Shown here piece after piece: positions 43,207-55,648 of a stretch of DNA of 64,000 nt (the stretch's first letter is position 1; every line of letters begins with the position of its first letter). Source of the stretch: an uncultured cyanobacterium (GTDB taxonomy: Bacteria; Cyanobacteriota; Cyanobacteriia; PCC-9006; JAAUQQ01); contig OY970368.1 of the NCBI GenBank assembly GCA_963718615.1, forward strand, positions 3,072,001 to 3,136,000, in the 5' to 3' direction. The position numbers were made by a program, and so were the translations under genes. The notes below the pieces were generated by a model that searched no databases, was not told the DNA's origin, and worked only from the letters and a program-made list of their open reading frames with translations.

Positions 43207-43388
43207 ACTGCGACTGAGCTAATCCTGATCTAGCCCTGAGCTACTATGGTGCTTTCACGTCATGCTTTAATGTTGTGCTTTCTTCATCCCAGCGCAGTGG
43301 CTACGATGAATTTATCGCCTATCTCAAAGCGCAGAGAATTTGGGATAGCGCGATTCTGATTCGCCAAGTTTTGCAGCGGTCGGTCCCC

Positions 43389-44222
43389 ATGACACTCTCG
43401 GAAAAACTGGCTCAAATCGATCGCCTCAAGGGCTGGCTCGATGCCTTTCGCCCACTCCCTGCGTCGGTCGTAGCGGAGTTGAAAGCCCTGTATGATGTGC
43501 GGTTTACGTACACCTCTAATGCGATCGAGGGAAACACGTTAACCCAAAGTGAGACTCAGCTTGTGTTGGAGCGGGGGATTACGGTGGGTGGGAAGAGTCT
43601 GACGGAGCATTTGGAGGTGGTTGGCCATAAGGAGGCGATCGACTATATCGAAGCCTTGGCACGGCAGGAGACAGCGATTGGAGAATGGGAGATTCGGCAA
43701 ATCCATAGTTTGATTCTGCGCAAGATTGCCCCAGAGGAAGCGGGCTGCTATCGACAGCTTGATGTCAGAGCAGCAGGAACGGAATATGTGTATCCGCCCC
43801 ATTATGCTGTGTCTGAGTTGATGGCGGAGTTTGTGGAATGGTTAGGGTCTGAAATGGTTCGGACGATGCATCCGGTTTGGCGCGCGACGGTGGCCCATGT
43901 AAAGTTTGTGTCGATTCATCCATTTCGGGAGGGTAATGGGCGAACAGGCCGGTTATTCATGAATTTGTTGCTGTTGCGATCGGGGTATCCGATTGTGGTG
44001 ATTAGCAATCGGGTTCGGCAGGCTTATATTGAGGCGTTGGTGGCAGCGCAGCAGGCTTCTGATTTGGAGCCGATGCTGGAGTTGGTTGCTAATGCGATGG
44101 AGGATGCGTTGATTGACCTGTTGCGGGGGGTGGCGACGGCGGGGGAGAGTCGCGGGAGGGGGTTGAGGTTTTATCGGGAGATGATGGAGATTTTGGATCA
44201 GGGGATGGGTTCGAATCCCTAG
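43389..44222 (+). CDS. Fic family protein with N-terminal inhibitory motif
   Basis: HPFREGNGRTGR Fic motif; SNAIEGN inhibitory helix; ATG 43389 preferred start. Confidence 0.92.
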   Translation: MTLSEKLAQIDRLKGWLDAFRPLPASVVAELKALYDVRFTYTSNAIEGNTLTQSETQLVLERGITVGGKSLTEHLEVVGHKEAIDYIEALARQETAIGEWEIRQIHSLILRKIAPEEAGCYRQLDVRAAGTEYVYPPHYAVSELMAEFVEWLGSEMVRTMHPVWRATVAHVKFVSIHPFREGNGRTGRLFMNLLLLRSGYPIVVISNRVRQAYIEALVAAQQASDLEPMLELVANAMEDALIDLLRGVATAGESRGRGLRFYREMMEILDQGMGSNP

Positions 44223-47200
44223 GATGTGATGAGGGCTTGGACTTCGTTGGCTTTTTCGGTGAGGTCTAGGTGTTGATAAAGGGCTAGGCTTTGGCTCAGG
44301 TATTGGCGGGCGGTTTGGGGGGCGTTGGGGTCGGTTTGGTTGGGATGTTGATAGATTTCGCCGAGGAGTTTGAGGGCGTCGGCTTGGTGTTTTTGGCGGT
44401 TGTAGGTTTGGAAGGTTTGGAGGGATTTTTGGGTGAGGGTGGTGGCTTGTGGGAGGTCTAGGAGGGCGGGGGTTTCGAGGTGGGCTCGGGCGATATCGAG
44501 GGTTTCTTCGGCGGCGATGAGGGTTTGGTTGAGGCTGGAGAAGAGGTTTAGGGCTTGGGTATAGCTGGTTTTGAATTGGCTGATGAGGGTTGGTGGGTTG
44601 GGGTCGTTGGGGGGGCGGTGGCGGAGTTGTTCGGCTTGGAGGAGGCTGAGGACGATGTGGTCGTAGGCGAGGTTTTCGGTGTATTGTTTTTGGGTGTTGA
44701 TTTGGAGGGCTTGTTGGAGGTTTTGTTGGGCTTGGGTGAGTTGGATGAGGGCGGTGTTTGGGTCGGGGGTTTGGTGGGCTTGTTGGCGTTGGGTGTTGGC
44801 GAGGCGTCTGAGTTGGCGGGCGAGGTTTTCTGAGTGGTCGAGTTTTTTATAGATGTCGTAACTTTGTTGATGATACTGGGCTGCTGTATCGTATTGTTTT
44901 TGTGCGGAGTAGATACTCCCTTGCTGTCGATACGAATCGGCAATGTCTAGCTTCTCGTCTAGCTTTTGACGAAGAGCCAAGTCTTGTTGTGCTGCTTCCA
45001 AAGCTTGCTCATACTTACCCCAGTCTCGATAGCTATCCGATATCCAATACCACTGGTTAGCAACCTTAGAATCTTTTCCTAACTGCTGATAGAGATCTCG
45101 GCTTTGGATGTATTGAGTGATCGCCTCTCCATACTTACTCCAGGCTTGATAGATTCTTCCCAATTGCCAATAAACAGCAGCAATTTCAGAAGAATCATCC
45201 AGCCGTTGACGAATCGCTAACTCCTGCTGCTGTGCTTCTAAGGCTTGCTCATACTTACCCCAATCTCGATAGCAAACTGATATCCGATACCACTGGTTAG
45301 CAACATCAGAATCTTTGCTTAACTGCTGATAAAGGTCTCGGCTTTGGATGTAGTGGCCGATCGCCTCTTCATACTTACTCCAGGCTTGATAGATTCTTCC
45401 CAATTGCCAATAAACAGCAGCAATTTCAGAAGAATCATCCAGCCGTTGACGAATCGCTAACTCCTGCTGCTGTGCTTCTAAGGCTTGCTCATACTTACCC
45501 CAATCTCGATAGCTATCCGATATCCAATACCACTGATTAGCAACATTAGAATCTTTGCCTAATTGCTGATAGAGATCTCGGCTTTGGATGTGGTGGGCGA
45601 TCGCCTCTTCATACTTGCTCCAGGATTGATAGATTCTTCCCAATCGCCAATAAGCAAGGGCAATTCCAGAGGAATCATCCAGCCGTTGACGAATCGCTAA
45701 ATCCTGCTGCTGTGCTTCTAAGGCTTGCTCATACTTACCCCAATCTCGATAGCTATCCGATATCCAATACCACTGATTAGCAACATTAGAATCTTTGCCT
45801 AATTGCTGATAGAGATCTCGGCTTTGGATGTGGTGGGCGATCGCCTCTTCATACTTACTCCAGGCTTGATAGATTCTTCCCAAGGCATAGTAAGCTCTAG
45901 CAACTCCAGAAGAATCATCTAGACTTTGATGAATCGCTAGATATCGCTGCATTGCTTCCAAAGCTTGCTCATACCTACCCCAGTCTCGATAGCTATCTGA
46001 TATCCAATACCACTGAGTAGCAACATTAGAATCTTTGCCTAACTGCTGATAGAGGTCTCGACTTTGGGTGTGGTGGGCGATCGCCTCTTCATACTTGCTC
46101 CACGCTTGGTAGATTCTTCCTAATCGCCAATAAGCAGTAGCAACCCCAGATGAATCATCCAGCCGCTGACGAATTGCTAACTCCTGCTGTGCTTCTAAGG
46201 CTTGCTCATACTTGCCCCAGTCTCGATAGCTATCCGATATCCAACCCCACATATTAGCAACATCAGAGTCTTTGCCTAACTGCTCATAGAGGTCTCGGCT
46301 TTGGATGTAGTGGCCGATCGCCTCTTCATACTTACTCCACTCTTGGTAGATTCTTCCCAATCGCAAATAAGCAAGGGCAACTCCAGAAGGAATCATCCAG
46401 CCGTTGACGAATCGCTGAATCCTGCTGCTCTGCTTCCAATGCTTGCTCATACTTACCCCAGTCTCGATAGCTATCCGATATCCAACCCCACATATTAGCA
46501 ACATCAGAGTCTTTGCCTAACTGCTCATAGAGGTCTCGGCTTTGAGTGTGGTGGGCGATCGCCTCTTCATACTTGCTCCAGGCTTGATAGATTTTTCCCA
46601 AGGCATAGTAAGCTCCAGCAACCCCAGAAGAATTATCTAGACTTTGACGAATCGCTAAACATTGCTGCCTTGTTTCCACAGCCTGCTCATACTTACCCCA
46701 ATCTCGATAGCAATCTGATATCCAAGCCCACTGATTCGCAACATTAGAATCTTTGCCTAATTGCTGATAGAGGTCTCGACTTTGGGTGTGGTGGGCGATC
46801 GCTTCTTCATACTTGCTCCACTCTTGGTAGATTCTTCCCAATCGCCAATAAGCAGTAGCAATTCCAGAAGGAATCATCCAGCCGTTGACGAATTGCTAAT
46901 TCTTGCTGCTGTGCATCCAATGCTTGCTCATACTTACCCCAGTCTCGATAGCAATCTGATATCCAATACCACTGATTAGCAACATTAGAATCTTTGCCTA
47001 ATTGCTGATAGAGGTCTCGACTTTGGGTGTGGTGGGCGATCGCCTCTTCATACTTGCTCCAGGCTTGATAGATTTGTCCAATTTGTCGATAAACACTAGC
47101 AATTTCAGAAGAATCATCCAGCCGTTGACGAATTGCTAACTCCTGCTGCTGTGCATCCAATGCTTGCTCATACTTACCCCAGTCTCGATAGCTATCCGAT

Positions 47201-50200
47201 ATCAAACACCACAGGTTAGCAACATTAGAATCTTTGCCTAATTGCTGATAGAGGTCTCGACTTTGGGTGTGGTAAGCGATTGCCTCTTCATACTTACTCC
47301 AGGCTTGATAGATTCTTCCCAATCGCCAATAAGCAGTAGCAATTCCAGAAGGAGTCTTCCAGCCGTTGACGAATTGCTAACTCCTGCTGCTGTGCATCCA
47401 ATGCTTGCTCATACTTACCCCAGTCTCGATAGCTATCCGATATCAAACACCACAGGTTAGCAACATTAGAATCTTTGCCTAATTGCTGATAGAGGTCTCG
47501 ACTTTGGGTGTGGTAAGCGATTGCCTCTTCATACTTACTCCAGGCTTGATAGATTCTTCCCAATCGCCAATAAGCAGTAGCAATTCCAGAAGGAGTCTTC
47601 CAGCCGTTGACGAATTGCTAACTCCTGCTGTTCTGCTTCCAAAGCTTGCTCATACTTGCCCCAGTCTCGATAACTATCCGATATCCAATACCAGAGATCT
47701 GCAACATTAGAGTCTTTGCCTAACTGCTGATAGAGGTCTCGACTTTGGGTGTAGTGGGCGATCGCCTCTTCATACTTATTCCAGGCTTGATAGATGCTTC
47801 CCAATTGCCAATAAGCAGTAGCAATTCCAGAGGAGTCTTCCAGCCGTTGACGAATTGCTAAATCCTGCTGTTCTGCTTCCAAAGCTTGCTCATACTTACC
47901 CCAATCTCGATAGCAAGCTGATATCCAACCCCATAGATTAGCAACATCAGAATCTTTGCCTAACTGCTGATAGAGGTCTCGACTTTGGGTGTGGTGGGCG
48001 ATCGCTTCTTCATACTTGCTCCAGGCTTGATAGATTTGTCCAATTTGTCGATAAACACTAGCAATTTCAGAAGAATCATCCAGCCGTTGACGAATTGCTA
48101 ATTCTTGCTGCTGTGCATCCAATGCTTGCTCATACTTACCCCAGTCTCGATAGCTATCTGATATCCAATACCACTGGTTAGCAACATTAGAATCTTTGCC
48201 TAATTGCTGGTAGAGGTCTCGACTTTGGGTGTAGTGGGTGACTGCCTCTTCATACTTACTCCAGGCTTGATAGCTTCGGGCAAGGTGCCAAAAGAGATAA
48301 GCCTCAGCCTTAAGGTTCTGAGCTTGTTGAGCAATAGCAATAGCCTGCTGAAAGCACTGTAGGGATTCTGCGTATCTACCATGAGATCTGTAACAAACAC
48401 CCCGATATCTCCATAAAATTAACTGCTCAGCAGAATCCGAATCAACATTCAATTTATCCGAACATTGCTGATAATATTGCAAGCCTTGATCATAATCATC
48501 TTTCTTCTCATAGGCAATCGCAATTGCCCACTCTACAAATCCACCAAAATAGCAATTATCCTCATCCACCAGCAATTCCAACCGCTCCAGCGCCCGATCA
48601 TAATGATCTGCCCTCAAATACGATAGGGAGGCTACAAACACCAAGCATCGACGATCATCAGAATCAAAATACCCTAAATCTAATGCTCGCTCCAGCACCG
48701 GGCTCATCTCCGCACCCAATTCTGCCATCAAGTCTCGTATATCACCAAACAATGAAGGCGTAAGGTGCTGCATAACCTCCACAACTCGTTCTGCCAACAA
48801 TTCTTCCGAATTACCACAAGCCACATACAACATCGCTACCCAAGCTCGGTTCCGCTGCTCAGTCGAAAGCTGTCGGTTCTCCACCGCCTGCTGCAATCGC
48901 CCCCAAACCTGATGATTAAAAGCTTCAATCCCCCGCAATCGCTGCAAGAGTTGCTTAACGGGCTCTTTACTAAATCCCTCATCTAACCCCAAATAAGTCA
49001 ACACCAACCTGTCAACCTGCCTAGCACAAAACGTTGACAACACCCGCACTTCAGCCAATATCTGTCCCACAAACAGCAAATCTTGCCACAGCCCCTCCGA
49101 CTCCCGTATCGCACTTTCTGATTGCGAATACCACAATAGAATCGGATTATCGCTCCCAGAATTCTGAAGGCGAATCTCTTGCCCTAAAATATTCGGCTGA
49201 TACTCTGATAAATTACGAAATAACTGCTCCAAAAGGCGATTGGTTCGTTTCTGGTCAGCACTTAAATACCCGAGCGCCAACAAAATCGGCTCATTCCACC
49301 GGGCCTGATTGCGATAGGGACCAATAATCTCCAAAATTTCACTAATCTCATTATCCGCAATCTGCCGAGCCGCAAAATACTCCTCAAACGTCAGATGCAT
49401 AAACCCATACATCTCCGGAGCCCGCTCCACAAATAGCCCCGTCGTCTCCCGCACCTTCCGCAAAAACTGCCGCACTAACTCCAGCGCAGCCTGCTCATCC
49501 ACCCCCTGCAATTCCATCATGTGCGGCGTCAGCCATCGCTCAACCTCCCCCTGGGCCACAATCCCCGAAGGCTTCTCCTCATGCATCCGCAGCGCCAGCG
49601 GAGCCAAAAGCGCCGTTACCTCTTCCTCCACCAACATCAACTGCCGATGTCTAGCCTGATAAGGAATATTGCGGCCAAGCTGCCAATCCTCAATCAACGT
49701 CTTTGCCGCCAATTGATAGAGCTCCACCCGACGCTGGGGCAACCGCGTACCATTGCGATGGATCAGCGCCAAAATCGTCAAAAGCAAAGGATTCGCTGCA
49801 AATCGCCTCACCCCTTGATTGCTCGAAATTTCCTGCACAATCTCTTGGGCTTCCCGATCCGCATCCCGCTGTTGTCGCTCCGCCTCAACCTCTGGCCGCT
49901 GCGCGATTTCGACCGCCAAACACCAACGCCTCAGGAATTGCTCAATCTGTTCATCCCCCATGGGCGTAATCGTAAATTCTCGAAACCGGCTTCCCAACGC
50001 AGCCTGCTTGTACCCCGCAATCCGACTTGTAACCACAAACTTGTTATTACGATACTCATCAACCAATCGATTAATGTGTTGAACAACCTGCACCCGATTG
50101 TCTTGATCAAACACCTCATCCAATCCATCCAGCAAAACCAAACAATCCCCTGTCGCCATTCGGTTCAGCAGCAGATTCGCCACAGAATCCCCATCCGTAG

Positions 50201-51347
50201 CCTCAAAACGGTGCTCCCACTGGCGATAAAATTGCTGGAGATAATCTACCAGGCTCAACTCTGGCGTATCAGTCAACCGTTCCGCATAGTCCGCAATCCG
50301 AAACAGAATGGGCAACCGCATATCTCCCAGTTCTTCTTCTTTCCCCCCTACCACGGTGGAGAGACGATCCCGCTGAGCCAAGGCAAAATGCCTTGCTAAG
50401 TAGCGCAGCAACGTCGTTTTCCCAGCCCCCGGATCACCCAAAATCACGCAATAGGTGTGCTTACGCACCGCCTCCGCCAGATCCACCACCTTCGTCACTC
50501 GCTGTTGCCGAGTATCAGACTCAACAGGACGCTCAAGCGTTATTTCCTGTTTCAATGCTCCAACGAGCTTAAGCGGTGATTTTCTACCTGGCTCTAAACT
50601 CTCTTCCCATTCACTTGCCCCTGAACCCACAGCCCCATTTATCGGGCTCAGATTCACGGGCGACTCTACTGCAACAATCTGTTCTTTGAAAGACTGGCTT
50701 CGCTTTTCCTCCCAGGAGCCCTGTAGTGATACATAAATTTGATCTAGGGAAATATCAACCTGCCGATTGACCTGCATGACCCCACTGACCCTCAGCCGTG
50801 AGTTTTCTGAGATTAGCCATTCCAAATAGGGATATAGCAACGGATCAAGCTGAGGACGTGTCGTAAAGATCGCGACTTTGCCCCGCCAATCCCAAAAGTC
50901 TGCAGCCCGTCGCCGAAACTCCTCTAAAAAAGACTCTCGATTCAGCCAAAAGACCAAAATCAAACCCTGCTCAAAAATTCGCTCTCTCCCCAAATTGAGC
51001 TGTTCCATTTCCTGCCGAAGCAAATCAGGCCGGAGCTGCTCTAAGCCAAAGGCCATCACAATTCGGCGTGTCGGGTTAGTCTTTGCTGAATCGGCTGGCA
51101 ATTGATGTAGAAAGTTAAATAATGAATCCTCGCTGTAATGAAACGTCAAAAAATGAAATTCATTTTCTAACTGCTGGATCTCTATCTTAAACGCCTGGGA
51201 AACAGGATGATCTGGAGCACTATCCGGTGTAATTGCAAACAGCGTCAAGCTCCGCTCGCTCATGGCTACAGCATTGACTAATTTAGCCAACTCGTCCCGT
51301 TCTTCGGCATCAAGAAGATGTAGATGATTTTCCGATTGAGTCATCAT
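44219..51347 (-). pseudogene. NLR-like NACHT NTPase with TPR-repeat sensor, split by four +1 frameshifts (2374 aa if corrected)
   Basis: Walker A GDPGAGKTT, Walker B LLDGLDEV, VTSR, ANPLLL, winged-helix FMHLTFEEYFAA; TPRs continue across ORFs 47535..51347, 47294..47563, 46807..47322, 46332..46877 and 44219..46504; 7129 nt minus 4 = 2375 codons. Confidence 0.88.
44960..48290. repeat. 14 tandem ~240-bp repeats, each encoding two 40-aa TPRs
   Basis: GC(T/C)TGCTCATAC anchor at about 45003, 45243, 45483, 45723, 45963, 46200, 46441, 46681, 46922, 47162, 47403, 47644, 47884 and 48124. Confidence 0.95.
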
Positions 51348-52639
51348 CAGTTCTCCCCATTCATAGAGCGCCAGCGTTCCAAATCGATAGCCAAAATTGG
51401 ATTAATATCAAACCATCGGCCTTGCTCAGGATCCTGATACCCCAAGACTAACTTATTGTGCAGAAGTTCATCGCAGATCACAACCTTGCCATATTTAGGG
51501 GAATCAAAGGAATTCGTGGTCAATTGCCCTGTTTTTTTGACCGTATTCAGCTCCGGAAACTGATAATCTTCAACCGTATAGCCTTGCCGCTCCTCTCGTA
51601 CAGCATCTTGGGCTAGGGCGAGGCTGATTTCGCTACTTTTTTTACGTAGGGCCACTTCTCCAGAGGTTCGTGCCAGACGGACCAGATCGCGCATTACCCC
51701 CCCACTTGTCTCACAAAGCAGATTCAAGGCATCAGGATGGAACAGGTTTCTGAAGGTCGGCTCCAGCGTTCCCAACCTCTTCTGAATCACCGTTGTTAGA
51801 ATATGTCGTCCAACTCGATCTGACTCATGGGTTGGTCGTGCGTGATCATCACATTTAAAAACCGGGATATTAGATAAGTCTAGGCATTTATCAAAGCTCT
51901 GCATTGGCTGCCTAAATGCCGAGGAATAACGTAATGAGATCGGAATTGCATAAACGATATGACAGTTTAGATCAGTCATCAAAGAACTAGAGAACATCTC
52001 TAGTGCAATCCCAAAATCTTTTCTATCCAAACCATCTACAATCACCAAGAGCTTTGGCTTATTCTGCTCTGCCACCGCAATGATTTCGTTAACCTTCGCA
52101 ACAATTTCACCTATTGCTGGACGAACTTCACGAGTCGCTGTTGTTTCTCGTTGAAACCCAACCTTTAACAGCAGTCCTAAGTCTTTAAAAAGCTTTGGCA
52201 ATTCTAGCTGTCCACCACCAGTAACTTTGTCTTGATAGGTGATACGCGCTAGACTCGTTAGTAATTCCTGCTCTAGCTTCCGAGGTAGCCTCCACCCAAG
52301 CTTTGTGAGCTGTTGGACAATTTGTAACCCAATCAGAACAACTACTTCCGCATAACCAATATTGTATTTGTCTAGAGCTGTGTCAGTGTCCACCCAGACA
52401 ACGGTGTAGTCTGAGACACATTTTTGTTCGAGTCGCCGTAGCTCTGTCGTTTTTCCACCTCCCCGATGACCCGCCAGCAGAAACTTTGCCGCTCCATCAT
52501 CCATTGCCAGAAGTTCTATGAGACTATCGACTGGACTATCCTCTCGACGTACATAAAAATCTCGTAACTCTCTGTCTATCAACGGTTCATCGGGCTTAAA
52601 GAGCTGATAGACAGGGGTCCAAAACTTAAGATCACTCAT
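51347..52639 (-). CDS. P-loop ATPase (AAA+/STAND-like), translationally coupled to the NACHT-TPR gene
   Basis: LAGHRGGGKTTEL Walker A, LLVIVDGLDR Walker B, SGGVMRDLVRL, C-terminal WFDINP; TGATG stop/start overlap at 51349-51345. Confidence 0.88.
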   Translation of the reverse strand: MSDLKFWTPVYQLFKPDEPLIDRELRDFYVRREDSPVDSLIELLAMDDGAAKFLLAGHRGGGKTTELRRLEQKCVSDYTVVWVDTDTALDKYNIGYAEVVVLIGLQIVQQLTKLGWRLPRKLEQELLTSLARITYQDKVTGGGQLELPKLFKDLGLLLKVGFQRETTATREVRPAIGEIVAKVNEIIAVAEQNKPKLLVIVDGLDRKDFGIALEMFSSSLMTDLNCHIVYAIPISLRYSSAFRQPMQSFDKCLDLSNIPVFKCDDHARPTHESDRVGRHILTTVIQKRLGTLEPTFRNLFHPDALNLLCETSGGVMRDLVRLARTSGEVALRKKSSEISLALAQDAVREERQGYTVEDYQFPELNTVKKTGQLTTNSFDSPKYGKVVICDELLHNKLVLGYQDPEQGRWFDINPILAIDLERWRSMNGEN

Positions 52640-53443: not shown

Positions 53444-55648
53444 TTAGCCCAGGGGATTGAGTCCTGGATCAGTGACCCAGAAAGAACCATCAATTCCTGC
53501 CAAGTCAGAGTCAGCGGTCGATGACAGGATTGCCTGTCCGCCTAAACTGTTTCCCTGAATCTCTACCTCCACCGCACGGTCATAACGACTATCGATCAGC
53601 GGTTGTGTGAGCATTACACCACCATCAAAATTCGCACGGAACTGGCCAGCCAACAGGAAGATATCATCGGTTGTACCAGTGCTTGGATCGAAATCAGAAT
53701 CGATCGCGTCATTAACGCCCACATTGGCCTGGGTAAGCTCGTATCCTGCAGGCAATCCCTCGATCGCAACCCTGTATTGCCCTGCAGCAAGGTTGCTAAA
53801 GCCATAGAAGCCCTCAGCGCCCGTCGTTTGGGTCCGAATGAGATCATCAGCAGTATTGAATTGTGCATCTGCCCCAGCCCCGCGCAGCGTGACCTGCGCG
53901 CCCGCAAAACCGCCTTCATTGACATCGTGCAGGCCATTGCCATTTTCATCGAAAAAGACACGGTTGCCGATAAAACCCGTTTTGGGATCAACCTTACCCG
54001 GTGTGGAGACCACGCCCGCATCAATATCGGCACGAAACTGACCGGCTGACAGGGTGATCGGCTCTGTCATGCCACTGTTGGGATCAACGTCTGAATCCAG
54101 GGCGTCGTTATTGCCCACATTGGCATAGGTGAGCTGAAAGCCTTCCGGCAGGCTGTCGATAGAGATTTTGTATTGTCCCGCAGCCAGATCGCTGAATCCG
54201 TAAAACCCTTTTTGCGCTGTGGTTTGGGTCTGGACAATATCGTCTTCCGTGTCAAAGAGATTATCCGTTCCAGCGCCCCGCAGAGTTACCCTTGCCCCTG
54301 CAAATCCCTCTTCATTGCCGTCATAAAGACCATTGCCATTGGCATCGAAAAAGACCCGGTTGCCGATGAAACCCGTTTTGGGATCTACGGCAGGTCCTGC
54401 CTGTTGGACAACACCGGCATCAATATCGGCTCGAAATTCTCCAACTTCCAGCGTAATTTGTTCACTGATACCGCTACTGGGGTTAAAGTCAGAATCGATC
54501 GCATCATTGCCGCCCACATTGGCTTGGGTCAGTTGAACCTCTTCCGGCAAATTATCAATCGCAATTTGATATTGACCAGCAGCCAGATCGCCAAAACCAT
54601 AGAATCCCTCAGCCCCGGTCGTTTGGCTCCGAACTAAATCGTCATTGGTGTTGAATAAACCATCAGCACCAGCGCCCCGTAGGGTTACCCGTGCTCCGGC
54701 AAAACCGCCTTCGTCCGTATCCAAAAGACCGTTGGCATTGGCATCCAGAAAAACCCGGTTGCCGATGAAACCGGTCTTAGGATCAATCTTTTCCGGAGTG
54801 GTCACAACGCCTGCATCGATATCTGCGCGAAACTGGCCCGCCGAGAGTGTGATCACATCTGTCAAGCCACTGTTCGGATCAACATCCGAATCAAAGGCAT
54901 CGTTGTTGCCCACATTAGCTTGGGTTAGTTGGAAGCCTTCGGGTAAGTTGTCAAGGGAAATGGTATATTGCCCCGCCGCCAGATTGTCAAACCCATAAAA
55001 GCCCTGCTGACCTGTGGTTTGGGTCCGAATGACATCATCCGCCGTTTCAAACAGACCATCGGCACCCGCACCCCGCAGGGTTACCTGTGCGCCTCCAAAG
55101 CCTTCTTCGTTCTCATCAAAAAGACCATTGCCGTTTTTATCCAAAAAGACTCGGTTGCCGATGAAACCAGTCTTAGGATCGACTAGTGGACCTGTCTGTT
55201 GGACGACACCCGCATCAATATCAACCCGGACTTGATTATCCGCTAAGTTGATAATCTCTGTCTCACCTGTGAGCGGATCAATGTCAGAATCAATCGTGTT
55301 GTTATTGCCCACCTTTGCATGGGTTAGCTGAAACCCTTCGGGCAGATTATGGATAGAGATTTTGTATTGTCCACCCGCGAGATCGCCGAAACCATAAAAG
55401 CCTTGGGAGTTTGTATTTTGGGTTCGAAGAATATCATCATCAGTATTGAAGATTCCGTCTGCTCCAGCGCTCTGTAGCGTGACTTGGGCTCCAGCAAAGC
55501 CGCTTTCATTGGCTTCGTGCAGGCCATTGCCATTTTCGTCGAAGAAGACACGGTTGCCAATAAAACCGAGGGGAAGAAGAGTCAGTTCTGAGCTTTGATT
55601 GCTTTCAATATTCTGAAAGAGAGAAGAGCTGGTCGTGAATGAAGTCAT
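53444..55648 (-). CDS. Protein with five SdrD B-like (Cna-B) repeats
   Basis: 5 x GFIGNRVF(F/L)DxNxNG...GFYGF..L..GQY...DSD...D(A/G)GV, about 133 aa each; no signal peptide. Confidence 0.88.
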   Translation of the reverse strand: MTSFTTSSSLFQNIESNQSSELTLLPLGFIGNRVFFDENGNGLHEANESGFAGAQVTLQSAGADGIFNTDDDILRTQNTNSQGFYGFGDLAGGQYKISIHNLPEGFQLTHAKVGNNNTIDSDIDPLTGETEIINLADNQVRVDIDAGVVQQTGPLVDPKTGFIGNRVFLDKNGNGLFDENEEGFGGAQVTLRGAGADGLFETADDVIRTQTTGQQGFYGFDNLAAGQYTISLDNLPEGFQLTQANVGNNDAFDSDVDPNSGLTDVITLSAGQFRADIDAGVVTTPEKIDPKTGFIGNRVFLDANANGLLDTDEGGFAGARVTLRGAGADGLFNTNDDLVRSQTTGAEGFYGFGDLAAGQYQIAIDNLPEEVQLTQANVGGNDAIDSDFNPSSGISEQITLEVGEFRADIDAGVVQQAGPAVDPKTGFIGNRVFFDANGNGLYDGNEEGFAGARVTLRGAGTDNLFDTEDDIVQTQTTAQKGFYGFSDLAAGQYKISIDSLPEGFQLTYANVGNNDALDSDVDPNSGMTEPITLSAGQFRADIDAGVVSTPGKVDPKTGFIGNRVFFDENGNGLHDVNEGGFAGAQVTLRGAGADAQFNTADDLIRTQTTGAEGFYGFSNLAAGQYRVAIEGLPAGYELTQANVGVNDAIDSDFDPSTGTTDDIFLLAGQFRANFDGGVMLTQPLIDSRYDRAVEVEIQGNSLGGQAILSSTADSDLAGIDGSFWVTDPGLNPLG

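What the first reader, a model, noticed from the sequence alone, without database searches (positions are those of the whole stretch)
44219..52639. Two-gene NLR-like system: partner P-loop ATPase plus NACHT protein with a diversifying TPR sensor
Seen: an intact ATPase gene overlaps (TGATG) a ~7.1-kb gene made of a ~165-aa N-terminal domain (..LNLGRERI..LVFWLN..RRAADFWDWR), NACHT, winged helix and 14 near-identical TPR-pair repeats. No recognisable N-terminal effector (TIR, SIR2, nuclease, CHAT) is present. Established: NACHT/STAND proteins with superstructure repeats are innate-immune receptors in fungi, animals and bacteria. Inference: the N-terminal domain looks like a degenerate P-loop fold that could dock the partner ATPase, giving an immune module that signals through a second NTPase. 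Fic and Uma2 genes on either side fit a defence-island context.
Basis: partly seen in the sequence, partly recalled or inferred. Interest (0 to 1): 0.8.

Follow-up and report, generated by a model that had tools for sequence, protein, structure and literature searches.

The report
ATPase plus NACHT-TPR gene pair, frameshifted
A cyanobacterial gene pair, an ATPase followed by an NLR-like sensor that begins with a dead copy of an ATPase fold, is conserved and apparently undescribed, but the sensor gene in this genome is interrupted by four identical one-base insertions.

Summary
The pair is real and conserved, but the sensor gene is not intact here. The 430-aa ATPase (51347-52639, minus strand) is whole and overlaps the next gene by TGATG. 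The "7.1-kb gene" is five open frames separated by four identical +1 insertions (TCC-T-TCTGG) at the same site in four of the 14 repeat units of 240 nt. One metagenome contig carries one of these sites without the extra T. All 22 other coding-type tandem arrays in this closed genome are open. The breaks are therefore either a very young pseudogene or a local assembly error.

The partner resembles Orc1/Cdc6-type AAA+ ATPases.

The two are tightly linked. The domain lies just downstream of the ATPase in 71 of 75 orthologous loci and in 29 of 30 loci of a distant paralogous clade. In the reverse direction, 40 of 41 domain matches have the ATPase just upstream. This genome holds three such pairs, two of them without NACHT.

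No third gene, effector or defence neighbourhood is conserved. An immune role is inferred, not shown.

The parts
51347..52639 (-). Partner ATPase gene, 430 aa, intact. Walker A is GHRGGGKTTEL, Walker B is LLVIVDGLDR, and SGGVMRDLVRLAR is conserved.
   Evidence: ORF. Motifs are invariant in 18 homologues. Pfam and NCBIfam give only sub-threshold hits: nSTAND_NTPase5 24.1 bits vs 34, AAA_16, Sll1717. The AF2 model (pLDDT 62.3) matches archaeal Orc1/Cdc6 (2v1u E 6.6e-8), TnsC and RdrA.
50853..51347 (-). N-terminal domain of the sensor (aa 1-165): an AAA+-like alpha/beta core without Walker A (TPDSAPDHP follows the first strand).
   Evidence: AF2 with 60 homologues gives pLDDT 79.6. Foldseek against the PDB finds RFC, Hda, ORC and Rif2 at E 2e-5 to 1e-3. 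In the VIA wide search all 50 rows are AAA+, Z 8.6-11.1, with Orc3 (7jgr_C) on top. No Pfam model matches, and the nearest Atlas clusters are unnamed.
49923..50453 (-). NACHT NTPase core (aa 299-475). Walker A is GDPGAGKTT; Walker B is LVLLDGLDEV (D-G-L-D-E).
   Evidence: Pfam PF05729, 1.1e-10, 42.1 bits against a cut-off of 26.7. Motifs read from the translation.
47535..51347 (-). First open piece of the sensor gene (1270 aa): N-domain, NACHT, helical region, and TPRs from about aa 900. It ends 14 codons past the first frameshift.
44993..48277 (-). Array of 14 TPR-pair units (240 nt, 80 aa each). Variation is concentrated in 22 codons.
   Evidence: TRF; unit table; entropy and synonymous/non-synonymous counts.
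47585..47597 (-). Frameshift site 1: GACTCC-T-TCTGGA (241-nt unit).
47344..47356 (-). Frameshift site 2: GACTCC-T-TCTGGA. One metagenome contig lacks one T here.
46863..46875 (-). Frameshift site 3: GATTCC-T-TCTGGA.
46382..46394 (-). Frameshift site 4: GATTCC-T-TCTGGA.
44219..46504 (-). Last open piece (761 aa): six and a half further repeat units, then a Q/T/P/N-rich helical tail (about 44219-44990).
   Evidence: composition

Best explanation
This is one copy of a conserved cyanobacterial two-gene module.

Gene 1 encodes an Orc1/Cdc6-STAND-type AAA+ ATPase whose catalytic motifs are kept. Gene 2 encodes a sensor with three parts: a catalytically dead AAA+ domain at the N-terminus, a NACHT NTPase, and a long array of 80-aa TPR-pair repeats with a set of hypervariable positions.

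The dead AAA+ domain is the signature partner of the ATPase. The two travel together whether or not a NACHT lies between the domain and the repeats.

Inferred mechanism:
1. The repeats bind a ligand.
2. The NACHT switches and oligomerises.
3. The clustered dead AAA+ domains pair with the free ATPase as a mixed AAA+ assembly, as inactive subunits do in ORC and clamp loaders.
4. This gives a second ATP-dependent step that gates or delivers the output.

The output is unknown. The most likely role is NLR-type conflict or immunity.

In this genome the sensor gene carries four identical +1 insertions in its repeats. Here it is either a very recent pseudogene (leaving a 1270-aa truncated product) or locally mis-assembled.
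For: Shown:
- The pair is adjacent and on the same strand in 71 of the 75 loci that have at least 700 nt downstream. 80 loci were examined; L085 was dropped because its match lies on the minus strand.
- Only these two gene clusters are shared widely: 79 of 79 and 72 of 79 loci, with the next cluster in at most 18.
- In this genome the three best ATPase-HMM hits among 39302 open frames each lie directly upstream of the three best N-domain-HMM hits. The two extra partners are N-domain + TPR without NACHT.
- In a paralogous ATPase clade, 29 of 30 loci have the N-domain directly downstream. The 30th has only 154 nt of downstream DNA.
- In the reverse direction, 40 of 41 N-domain matches in 301 genomes have an ATPase match directly upstream. 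This comes from my reading of the tables. The 41st has none within 1072 nt.
- The N-domain folds as an AAA+ core with no GK[ST] motif.
- The ATPase motifs are invariant and its fold matches Orc1/Cdc6.
- Distant N-domain relatives sit in front of NACHT+HEAT, NB-ARC+TPR, NACHT+FGE-sulfatase, TPR alone and RES, and in a NACHT+HEAT+TIR protein.
- The ATPase superfamily occurs in 79 of 301 sampled cyanobacterial genomes, with several copies per genome and 0 of 123 in one family.
- Repeat variation: the 22 variable codons carry non-synonymous:synonymous differences of 1371:329, against 359:1018 in the other 58 codons.

Inferred: heteromeric pairing, the order of events, and the immune role.
Against: - No binding model could be obtained.
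- Profile-profile comparison finds no sequence similarity between the N-domain and the ATPase (probability 0.6%).
- No effector domain was found and no third gene is conserved.
- No PADLOC model matches the ATPase.
- Fic and Uma2 neighbours are not conserved.
- In Nostocales the pair sits among housekeeping genes: QueC, phosphoglucomutase, Ham1, CorC.
- The ATPase is unusually conserved for a defence gene, 57-85% identity across orders.
- pN/pS at the variable codons is about 1, not clearly above it.
- Four of 75 ATPase loci lack the partner; one of them, L076, is a clear orphan.
- The ATPase model has only moderate confidence (pLDDT 62.3), and its last 80 residues are unmodelled.
- Related genomes are not independent samples.
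Confidence: 0.55

Rival explanations
1. The four frameshifts are real. In this strain the sensor gene is a very young pseudogene, or makes only the 1270-aa truncated protein. One insertion arose and was copied to three other units by gene conversion between repeats.
For: - The insertion is the same extra T at the homologous site of four units.
- All 22 other tandem arrays with a period divisible by 3 in this closed genome are fully open, including arrays 95-98% identical. The assembly therefore does not generally break repeats.
- Two units with the same local sequence are in frame (GACTCCTCTGGA and GATTCCTCTGGA), so the insertion is not a strict sequence-context error.
Against: - All five pieces are otherwise free of stops or other indels over 3.6 kb. 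Decay, if real, is very recent.
- A 220-nt metagenome contig matches 47282-47502 with no other difference and lacks one T at 47349.
- The flanks of the four insertions differ (GAAGAC vs GATGAT; GGAATTGCTACT vs GGAGTTGCCCTT), which requires very short conversion tracts.
- No reads of this genome were available.
Confidence: 0.45
2. The frameshifts are local assembly or polishing errors in the longest repeat array. The true gene is one frame of about 2374 codons, like its orthologues.
For: - Orthologues are mostly single frames of 1100-2433 aa.
- An in-frame copy of site 2 exists in an independent sample.
- The pieces have no other defects.
- This is the longest array, with the longest period, in the genome.
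- Two loci from contigs whose names suggest long-read assemblies (my reading of the record titles), L060 and L068, also show split genes.
Against: - Other repeat arrays are clean.
- The same local sequence is in frame in two other units.
- A run of one base read as two is not a typical homopolymer error (this rests on my general knowledge, not on a call).
Confidence: 0.45
3. The module is not immune. It is a cellular STAND-type signalling or regulatory pair, like MalT- or AfsR-type TPR regulators, that senses an endogenous ligand.
For: - No effector domain was found.
- No conserved defence neighbours.
- Stable housekeeping synteny in Nostocales.
- High conservation of the ATPase.
- No PADLOC model matches the ATPase.
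Against: - The focal orthologue is patchy: 0 of 7 same-family genomes (62-93% complete) and 2 of 33 other genomes of the same class.
- Many paralogues per genome.
- Repeat arrays of variable length with hypervariable positions.
- N-domain relatives are fused to RES, or stand in proteins that also carry TIR or a kinase.
Confidence: 0.3
4. The four insertions are programmed +1 ribosomal frameshift sites (UCC-U-UCU), or the pieces are separate genes.
For: The same site occurs four times and every piece stays open.
Against: - Orthologues have single frames without this site.
- The zero-frame codon after UCC is an ordinary Phe codon, so there is no slow or stop codon.
- Four serial shifts would leave little full-length product (inference).
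- The 'start' codons of the later pieces are internal Leu codons of the repeat.
Confidence: 0.03

Closest known systems
Bacterial NACHT (bNACHT) NLR-related proteins (Kibby et al.; preprint 10.1101/2022.07.19.500537, passages read)
   Same: A NACHT module with the D[GAS]hDE Walker B signature, followed by 'antigen-receptor-type' TPR repeats. These proteins are abundant and paralogous in multicellular cyanobacteria.
   Different: The N-terminus is a dead AAA+ domain, not an enzymatic effector or a named adaptor. A separate AAA+ ATPase gene is nearly always encoded just upstream. No phage test exists for this clade.
Avs/AVAST and other defence STANDs (Lee et al. 2026, PMC13581612; abstract and section 5 read)
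   Same: Three-part logic: an N-terminal module, a STAND NTPase, and a large TPR-like sensor.
   Different: No effector domain and no defence neighbourhood. There is a second NTPase in trans. I did not see that paper's supplementary clade tables, which may list this clade.
iSTAND ternary systems with MoxR and vWA (Kaur et al. 2020, PMC7159879; passages read)
   Same: An inactive STAND/AAA+ domain protein works with an active AAA+ ATPase. These systems are enriched in multicellular bacteria.
   Different: No vWA or MoxR gene is conserved here. The partner is Orc1/Cdc6-like. The focal sensor also keeps an active NACHT.
ParA-STAND and ParA-TPR fusions in the TIR-ParA and TA-ParA systems (preprint 10.64898/2026.10.19.760177; passages read)
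   Same: A second P-loop NTPase module is grafted in front of either a STAND module or TPRs alone. The authors propose a two-step NTP-dependent cascade.
   Different: The module here is AAA+-like and inactive, not ParA. The active NTPase is a separate gene. There is no TIR or toxin-antitoxin partner.
ORC/Cdc6 and clamp-loader assemblies
   Same: Active and degenerate AAA+ subunits are mixed. The best structural match of the N-domain is Orc3, and the best match of the partner is archaeal Orc1/Cdc6.
   Different: There is no replication context. Similarity is at the level of fold only (6-15% identity).
Fungal NLRs with highly internally conserved TPR, ANK or WD repeats (recalled; PMC13449251 seen only in a search listing)
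   Same: Long arrays of similar repeats, with variation focused on a few positions and variable repeat number between orthologues.
   Different: This is a bacterial gene. Positive selection is not shown (pN/pS about 1 at the variable codons).

Membership tests
NACHT NTPase (Pfam PF05729) | Profile match above the curated cut-off | tested here: met
   42.1 bits against 26.7, aa 299-475
NACHT NTPase | Walker A GxxxxGK[ST] and Walker B D[GAS]hDE (signature as quoted in the Kibby preprint) | tested here: met
   GDPGAGKTT and LVLLDGLDEV in the translation
Known anti-phage NLR/Avs/bNACHT systems | Match to a defence-system model | tested here: not met
   PADLOC: no family for the ATPase. The NACHT piece gets only weak hits: a generic TPR model at 3.7e-12, and hits over the Walker A region at 1.8e-5 and weaker. 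NCBIfam EruA scores 39.7 bits against a cut-off of 1000.
Known anti-phage NLR/Avs/bNACHT systems | Recognisable N-terminal effector or named adaptor domain | tested here: not met
   No Pfam family among those listed covers aa 1-275. The fold is an AAA+ core.
Known anti-phage NLR/Avs/bNACHT systems | Protection against phage | not testable with these tools
   This needs an experiment.
AAA+ fold (N-terminal domain) | An alpha/beta core that superposes on AAA+ ATPases | tested here: met
   Model pLDDT 79.6. Foldseek E down to 2.1e-5. VIA Z 8.6-11.1 with 120-176 residues aligned; all 50 rows are AAA+.
Active P-loop NTPase (N-terminal domain) | Walker A GK[ST] after the first strand | tested here: not met
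   TPDSAPDHP in the window's protein. The consensus of 60 homologues is IAPESxPQHP, with no G-K-[ST].
Orc1/Cdc6-STAND clade AAA+ (partner ATPase) | Fold match, with Walker A, Walker B and a lid arginine conserved | tested here: met
   2v1u E 6.6e-8, 2qby, 1fnn and 1w5s on top, although the model pLDDT is only 62.3. The motifs are invariant in 18 sequences.
Named Pfam/NCBIfam ATPase families (nSTAND_NTPase5, AAA_16, Sll1717) | Score above the curated cut-off | tested here: not met
   24.1 vs 34, 21.3 vs 32.6 and 18.2 vs 75 bits
iSTAND / MoxR-vWA ternary system | Conserved MoxR and vWA genes beside the inactive STAND gene | tested here: not met
   Only two gene clusters are shared by more than 18 of 79 loci. 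The eight next clusters that I scanned are housekeeping or unknown.
Defence island | Recurrent neighbourhood of known defence genes | tested here: not met
   Fic is in 0 of 79 loci and Uma2 in 3 of 79. Uma2 has at least 11 tblastn hits in this genome.
Diversifying repeat sensor | Excess of non-synonymous change at a subset of repeat positions | tested here: inconclusive
   In the 22 variable codons non-synonymous:synonymous is 1371:329, about neutral given a 4:1 ratio of sites. In the rest it is 359:1018. Overall pN/pS is 0.32.

The most novel reading that the evidence does not exclude
The free Orc1/Cdc6-like ATPase and the dead AAA+ domain may form a general, so far unnamed two-NTPase switch cassette of multicellular cyanobacteria. 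It would be plugged in front of many sensors and outputs: NACHT, NB-ARC, TPR alone, HEAT, FGE-sulfatase, RES, TIR and kinase. In this reading the dead domains, once clustered by the sensor, template a mixed AAA+ ring with the ATPase. That would be an initiator- or clamp-loader-like assembly logic reused for conflict signalling, with the ATPase itself as the output.
Probability: 0.3. Interest if true: 0.8.

Novelty: new variant of a known kind. Interest (0 to 1): 0.6.

Why it matters
STAND/NLR proteins are usually read as self-contained receptors made of an effector, an NTPase and a sensor. Here the effector position holds a dead AAA+ domain that is genetically tied to a separate, active AAA+ ATPase. 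The same tie holds when no NACHT is present.

If the two bind, this would define a widespread accessory switch: 223 relatives among the species genomes scanned and 358 representative clusters for the domain. It would give a testable route to the output of many effector-less bacterial NLR-like proteins.

For this genome in particular, the finding also flags a gene that should not be annotated as intact without checking the four insertions.

Tried and rejected
- Complex prediction (ATPase alignment + N-domain 1-170) gave no result. The one accepted job was lost. The tool was then declared unavailable.
- PDB sequence searches found nothing significant: best E 0.22 for the N-domain profile and 0.049 for the ATPase profile.
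- hhalign of the N-domain against the ATPase found no similarity.
- The look-up of sequencing runs found no run of this genome, only two metagenomes holding 0.11 and 0.08 of the sampled words. The X2 piece covers no frameshift site.
- The metagenome scan with P0293 (N-domain + RES) found no relative.
- The search for fused forms found one protein, P0385: NACHT first, the ATPase homologue last, no N-domain. A single case is too thin to use.
- Promoter and terminator scans did not exceed shuffles.
- The search of earlier findings returned nothing in three look-ups.
- Four literature searches and passages of four papers gave no description of this pair.
- The idea that the N-domain is ParA-like was dropped, because all 50 VIA rows are AAA+.
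- Programmed frameshifting was considered and rejected (see rivals).

Full report
**What is in the sequence**

On the minus strand, an intact 430-aa ORF (51347-52639) ends in TGA. The A of that stop is the first base of the next ATG (GAG AAC TGA / ATG ATG ACT).

The next gene is open for 1270 codons (47535-51347). It then continues in four further frames: 47294-47563, 46807-47322, 46332-46877 and 44219-46504. The '7.1-kb gene' is therefore not one ORF.

The breaks lie in a tandem array (44993-48277; period 240, 13.7 copies, 88% matches). When the array is anchored on the motif WSKYEEA there are 14 units. Their lengths are 240, 240, 241, 241, 240, 241, 240, 241, 237, and then five of 240 nt.

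Each 241-nt unit has one extra base in GAYTCC-T-TCTGGA, at 47585-47597, 47344-47356, 46863-46875 and 46382-46394. That gives 4 matches where 0.00 are expected. Eight in-frame units read GAYTCHTCTGRR, and two of these have the same TCC codon without the extra T.

**Are the frameshifts real?**

No sequencing run of this genome was on offer.

One 220-nt contig of a metagenome (X1) lies on 47282-47502 with no other difference, and it lacks one letter at 47349. That letter is one of the two T's of site 2. An in-frame copy therefore exists elsewhere.

The genome is a closed single contig of 6.10 Mb. Among its 28 long tandem arrays, all 22 others with a period divisible by three are open from end to end, including arrays 95-98% identical. 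Only this array is broken. This argues against a general weakness of the assembly in repeats.

The five pieces carry no other stop or indel. If the decay is real, it is very young.

I cannot decide between a recent pseudogene and a local assembly error, and I give both about 0.45. Most orthologues are single frames of 1100-2433 aa.

**The domains**

*The sensor.* Pfam finds NACHT at aa 299-475 (42.1 bits, cut-off 26.7) and many TPR families. None of the listed families covers aa 1-275. The NACHT motifs GDPGAGKTT and LVLLDGLDEV fit the D[GAS]hDE signature quoted in the Kibby preprint.

*The N-terminal domain.* I aligned residues 1-200 with 59 homologous stretches taken from fetched loci. This gave an AlphaFold2 model with mean pLDDT 79.6 and a five-stranded alpha/beta core.
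- Foldseek against the PDB returned AAA+ proteins: RAD17-RFC, Hda, ORC subunits, clamp-loader delta and Rif2, at E 2e-5 to 1e-3 and TM 0.37-0.49.
- The independent VIA search over 48161 chains returned AAA+ proteins in all 50 rows, Z 8.6-11.1. Drosophila Orc3 was on top with 167 residues aligned.
- After the first strand the sequence is TPDSAPDHP (consensus IAPESxPQHP), with no GK[ST].

*The partner ATPase.* It reaches no curated family cut-off and matches no PADLOC model. Its Walker A (GHRGGGKTT), its Walker B (VDGLD) and an SGGxxRxLxRL motif are invariant in 18 homologues. Its model is of moderate confidence (pLDDT 62.3, with the last 80 residues poor). It matches archaeal Orc1/Cdc6 best (2v1u, E 6.6e-8), then ORC1, TnsC and RdrA.

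**Linkage**

*The ATPase family.* The word-index search listed 277 homologues. All names given were cyanobacterial, with 57-85% identity among the best 120.

*The N-domain family.* The region search found 145 proteins. Almost all were N-domain + NACHT + TPR.

*Forward test.* A scan of species genomes found 223 relatives of the ATPase and kept 79 loci.
- Profiles of both parts were run over 80 loci, the 79 plus L084. L085 was left out because its match lies on the minus strand.
- 75 of the 80 had at least 700 nt downstream.
- 71 of the 75 had the N-domain within 2.1 kb downstream on the same strand.
- The exceptions are L072, L076, L077 and L083. L076 is a clear orphan.

*No third component.* When all flanking ORFs were clustered, only the two genes were shared widely: 79 and 72 of 79 loci. 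The next clusters (18 loci or fewer) are Nostocales synteny with housekeeping functions.

*Paralogues in this genome.* Among its 39302 open frames, the three best ATPase hits each lie immediately upstream of the three best N-domain hits (E 1e-87, 7e-4 and 0.011). The two extra partners are N-domain + TPR proteins of 665 and 713 aa without a NACHT.

*Paralogues in other genomes.* I searched 301 cyanobacterial genomes with one of those paralogous ATPases (about 24% identical to the focal one).
- It matched in 79 genomes and 51 of 134 genera, often with five or more copies per genome. One family had 0 of 123.
- In the 30 best loci, 29 had an N-domain hit directly downstream. The 30th has only 154 nt of downstream DNA.

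*Reverse test.* The N-domain profile gave 41 matches in the same kind of sample. Comparing coordinates with the ATPase tables, 40 of them have an ATPase match directly upstream on the same strand. The 41st has none within 1072 nt of its contig start.

Related genomes are not independent, so these counts describe a pattern and are not a statistical test. They do show that the tie survives deep paralogy and the loss or gain of the NACHT.

**Wider family of the domain**

A profile search of 1.84 billion representative proteins gave 358 hits at E <= 0.001. In the 150 best listed, the domain is almost always at the N-terminus.

I scanned 55 of the more distant of those 150 with Pfam. They were N-domain + NACHT + HEAT (many), + NACHT + TPR, + NACHT + FGE-sulfatase, + NB-ARC + TPR, + TPR alone (many), + RES (one), one NACHT + HEAT + TIR protein, and one protein with EAD7. 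One close relative (P0173) has a protein kinase in front of the domain.

No Pfam model covers the domain, and the nearest Atlas clusters are unnamed.

**The repeats**

Across the 14 units, synonymous difference is 0.31 and non-synonymous 0.10, so pN/pS is 0.32. Twenty-two codons with entropy above 0.8 carry non-synonymous:synonymous differences of 1371:329. The other 58 codons carry 359:1018.

Variation is thus focused on a subset of positions at about the neutral rate. This fits a variable binding surface but does not prove positive selection.

**Context**

- The Fic gene (43275-44222, plus strand) converges on the sensor gene and overlaps its end by four bases. It matches PADLOC SoFic and PDC-S04 models.
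- Fic occurs in 0 of 79 related loci. Uma2 occurs in 3 of 79 and has at least 11 hits in this genome. The 'defence island' argument is not supported.
- The focal orthologue is patchy: 0 of 7 genomes of the same family (62-93% complete) and 2 of 33 others of the class.

**How it most likely works**

Shown: two NTPase genes and a dead AAA+ domain that co-occur almost without exception.

Inferred:
1. The TPR array binds a ligand.
2. The NACHT switches and oligomerises.
3. The clustered dead AAA+ domains pair with the free ATPase, as inactive subunits do in ORC and clamp loaders.
4. This adds a second ATP-dependent step that gates or executes the response.

The output is unknown, since no effector was found. 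An immune or conflict role is favoured by several observations: paralogue expansion in multicellular lineages, variable repeat arrays, patchiness, and relatives that carry RES, TIR or kinase domains. Other observations speak for a cellular signalling role, which I keep as a rival at 0.3: the high conservation of the ATPase, the housekeeping synteny in Nostocales, and the lack of defence neighbours.

**Comparison with what is known**

The sensor is a member of the NACHT family; the tests are listed in the membership section. The pair matches no PADLOC system.

I found no description of this pair in four full-text searches, nor in the papers I opened:
- Kaur 2020 (PMC7159879): passages.
- The Kibby preprint (10.1101/2022.07.19.500537): passages.
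- Lee 2026 (PMC13581612): abstract and section 5.
- The ParA preprint (10.64898/2026.10.19.760177): passages.
- PMC8195603 and PMC10907252: search listing only.

The nearest ideas are the iSTAND-MoxR-vWA systems and the ParA modules grafted onto STAND or TPR sensors. Both involve a second NTPase, but with other families and other partners. The supplementary tables of these papers, which I did not see, may list the clade.

**Verdict**

The module is a new variant of a known kind and is worth a bench test on an intact orthologue. The copy in this window is broken as assembled.

Noticed in passing
L086:4459-7807 (minus strand) and L087:4084-7530 (minus strand): This genome holds two further ATPase + N-domain pairs outside the window. 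Their sensors are N-domain + TPR proteins (665 and 713 aa) with no NACHT. A DDE transposase lies next to the first pair (L086:2773-4266) and an XisI gene next to the second (L087:3702-4079).
   Followed up: yes
P0173 (database protein, 1087 aa): A close relative of the sensor has a protein kinase domain in front of the N-domain (N-domain at aa 266-452), followed by NACHT. The domain is therefore not always at the extreme N-terminus.
   Followed up: partly
P0385 (database protein, 1251 aa): A single protein has a NACHT first and a 62%-identical copy of the partner ATPase at its C-terminus, with no N-domain. It comes from one 5984-nt contig and could be a real fusion or a gene-calling artefact.
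   Followed up: partly
window 44000-45000: The last ~250 codons of the sensor gene are Q/T/P/N-rich and give an extreme GC skew on the plus strand (0.44-0.56). ORFs of 92-131 aa in other frames overlap it and look like by-products of the composition.
   Followed up: no
window 43275-44222 (+): A Fic-domain gene converges on the sensor gene, and the two ends overlap by 4 nt (44219-44222). It matches PADLOC SoFic (1.8e-32) and PDC-S04 models but is absent from all 79 related loci.
   Followed up: partly
window 53444-55648 (-): A 734-aa protein made of SdrD B-like repeats (Pfam 1.6e-129, five stretches) lies beyond the Uma2 gene. It appears unrelated to the pair.
   Followed up: no
L060:9001-11069 and L068:10359-12161: In these two loci the ATPase or the sensor gene is split. 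The contig names suggest long-read assemblies, which is my reading of the record titles. This is a reminder that such breaks can be technical.
   Followed up: no
L029:5889-6464 and L031:6784-7974: In 18 Nostocales loci, a 191-aa protein with no Pfam family and an actin-like (ALP_N) protein lie just upstream of the pair on the same strand. This looks like lineage synteny but was not examined further.
   Followed up: partly
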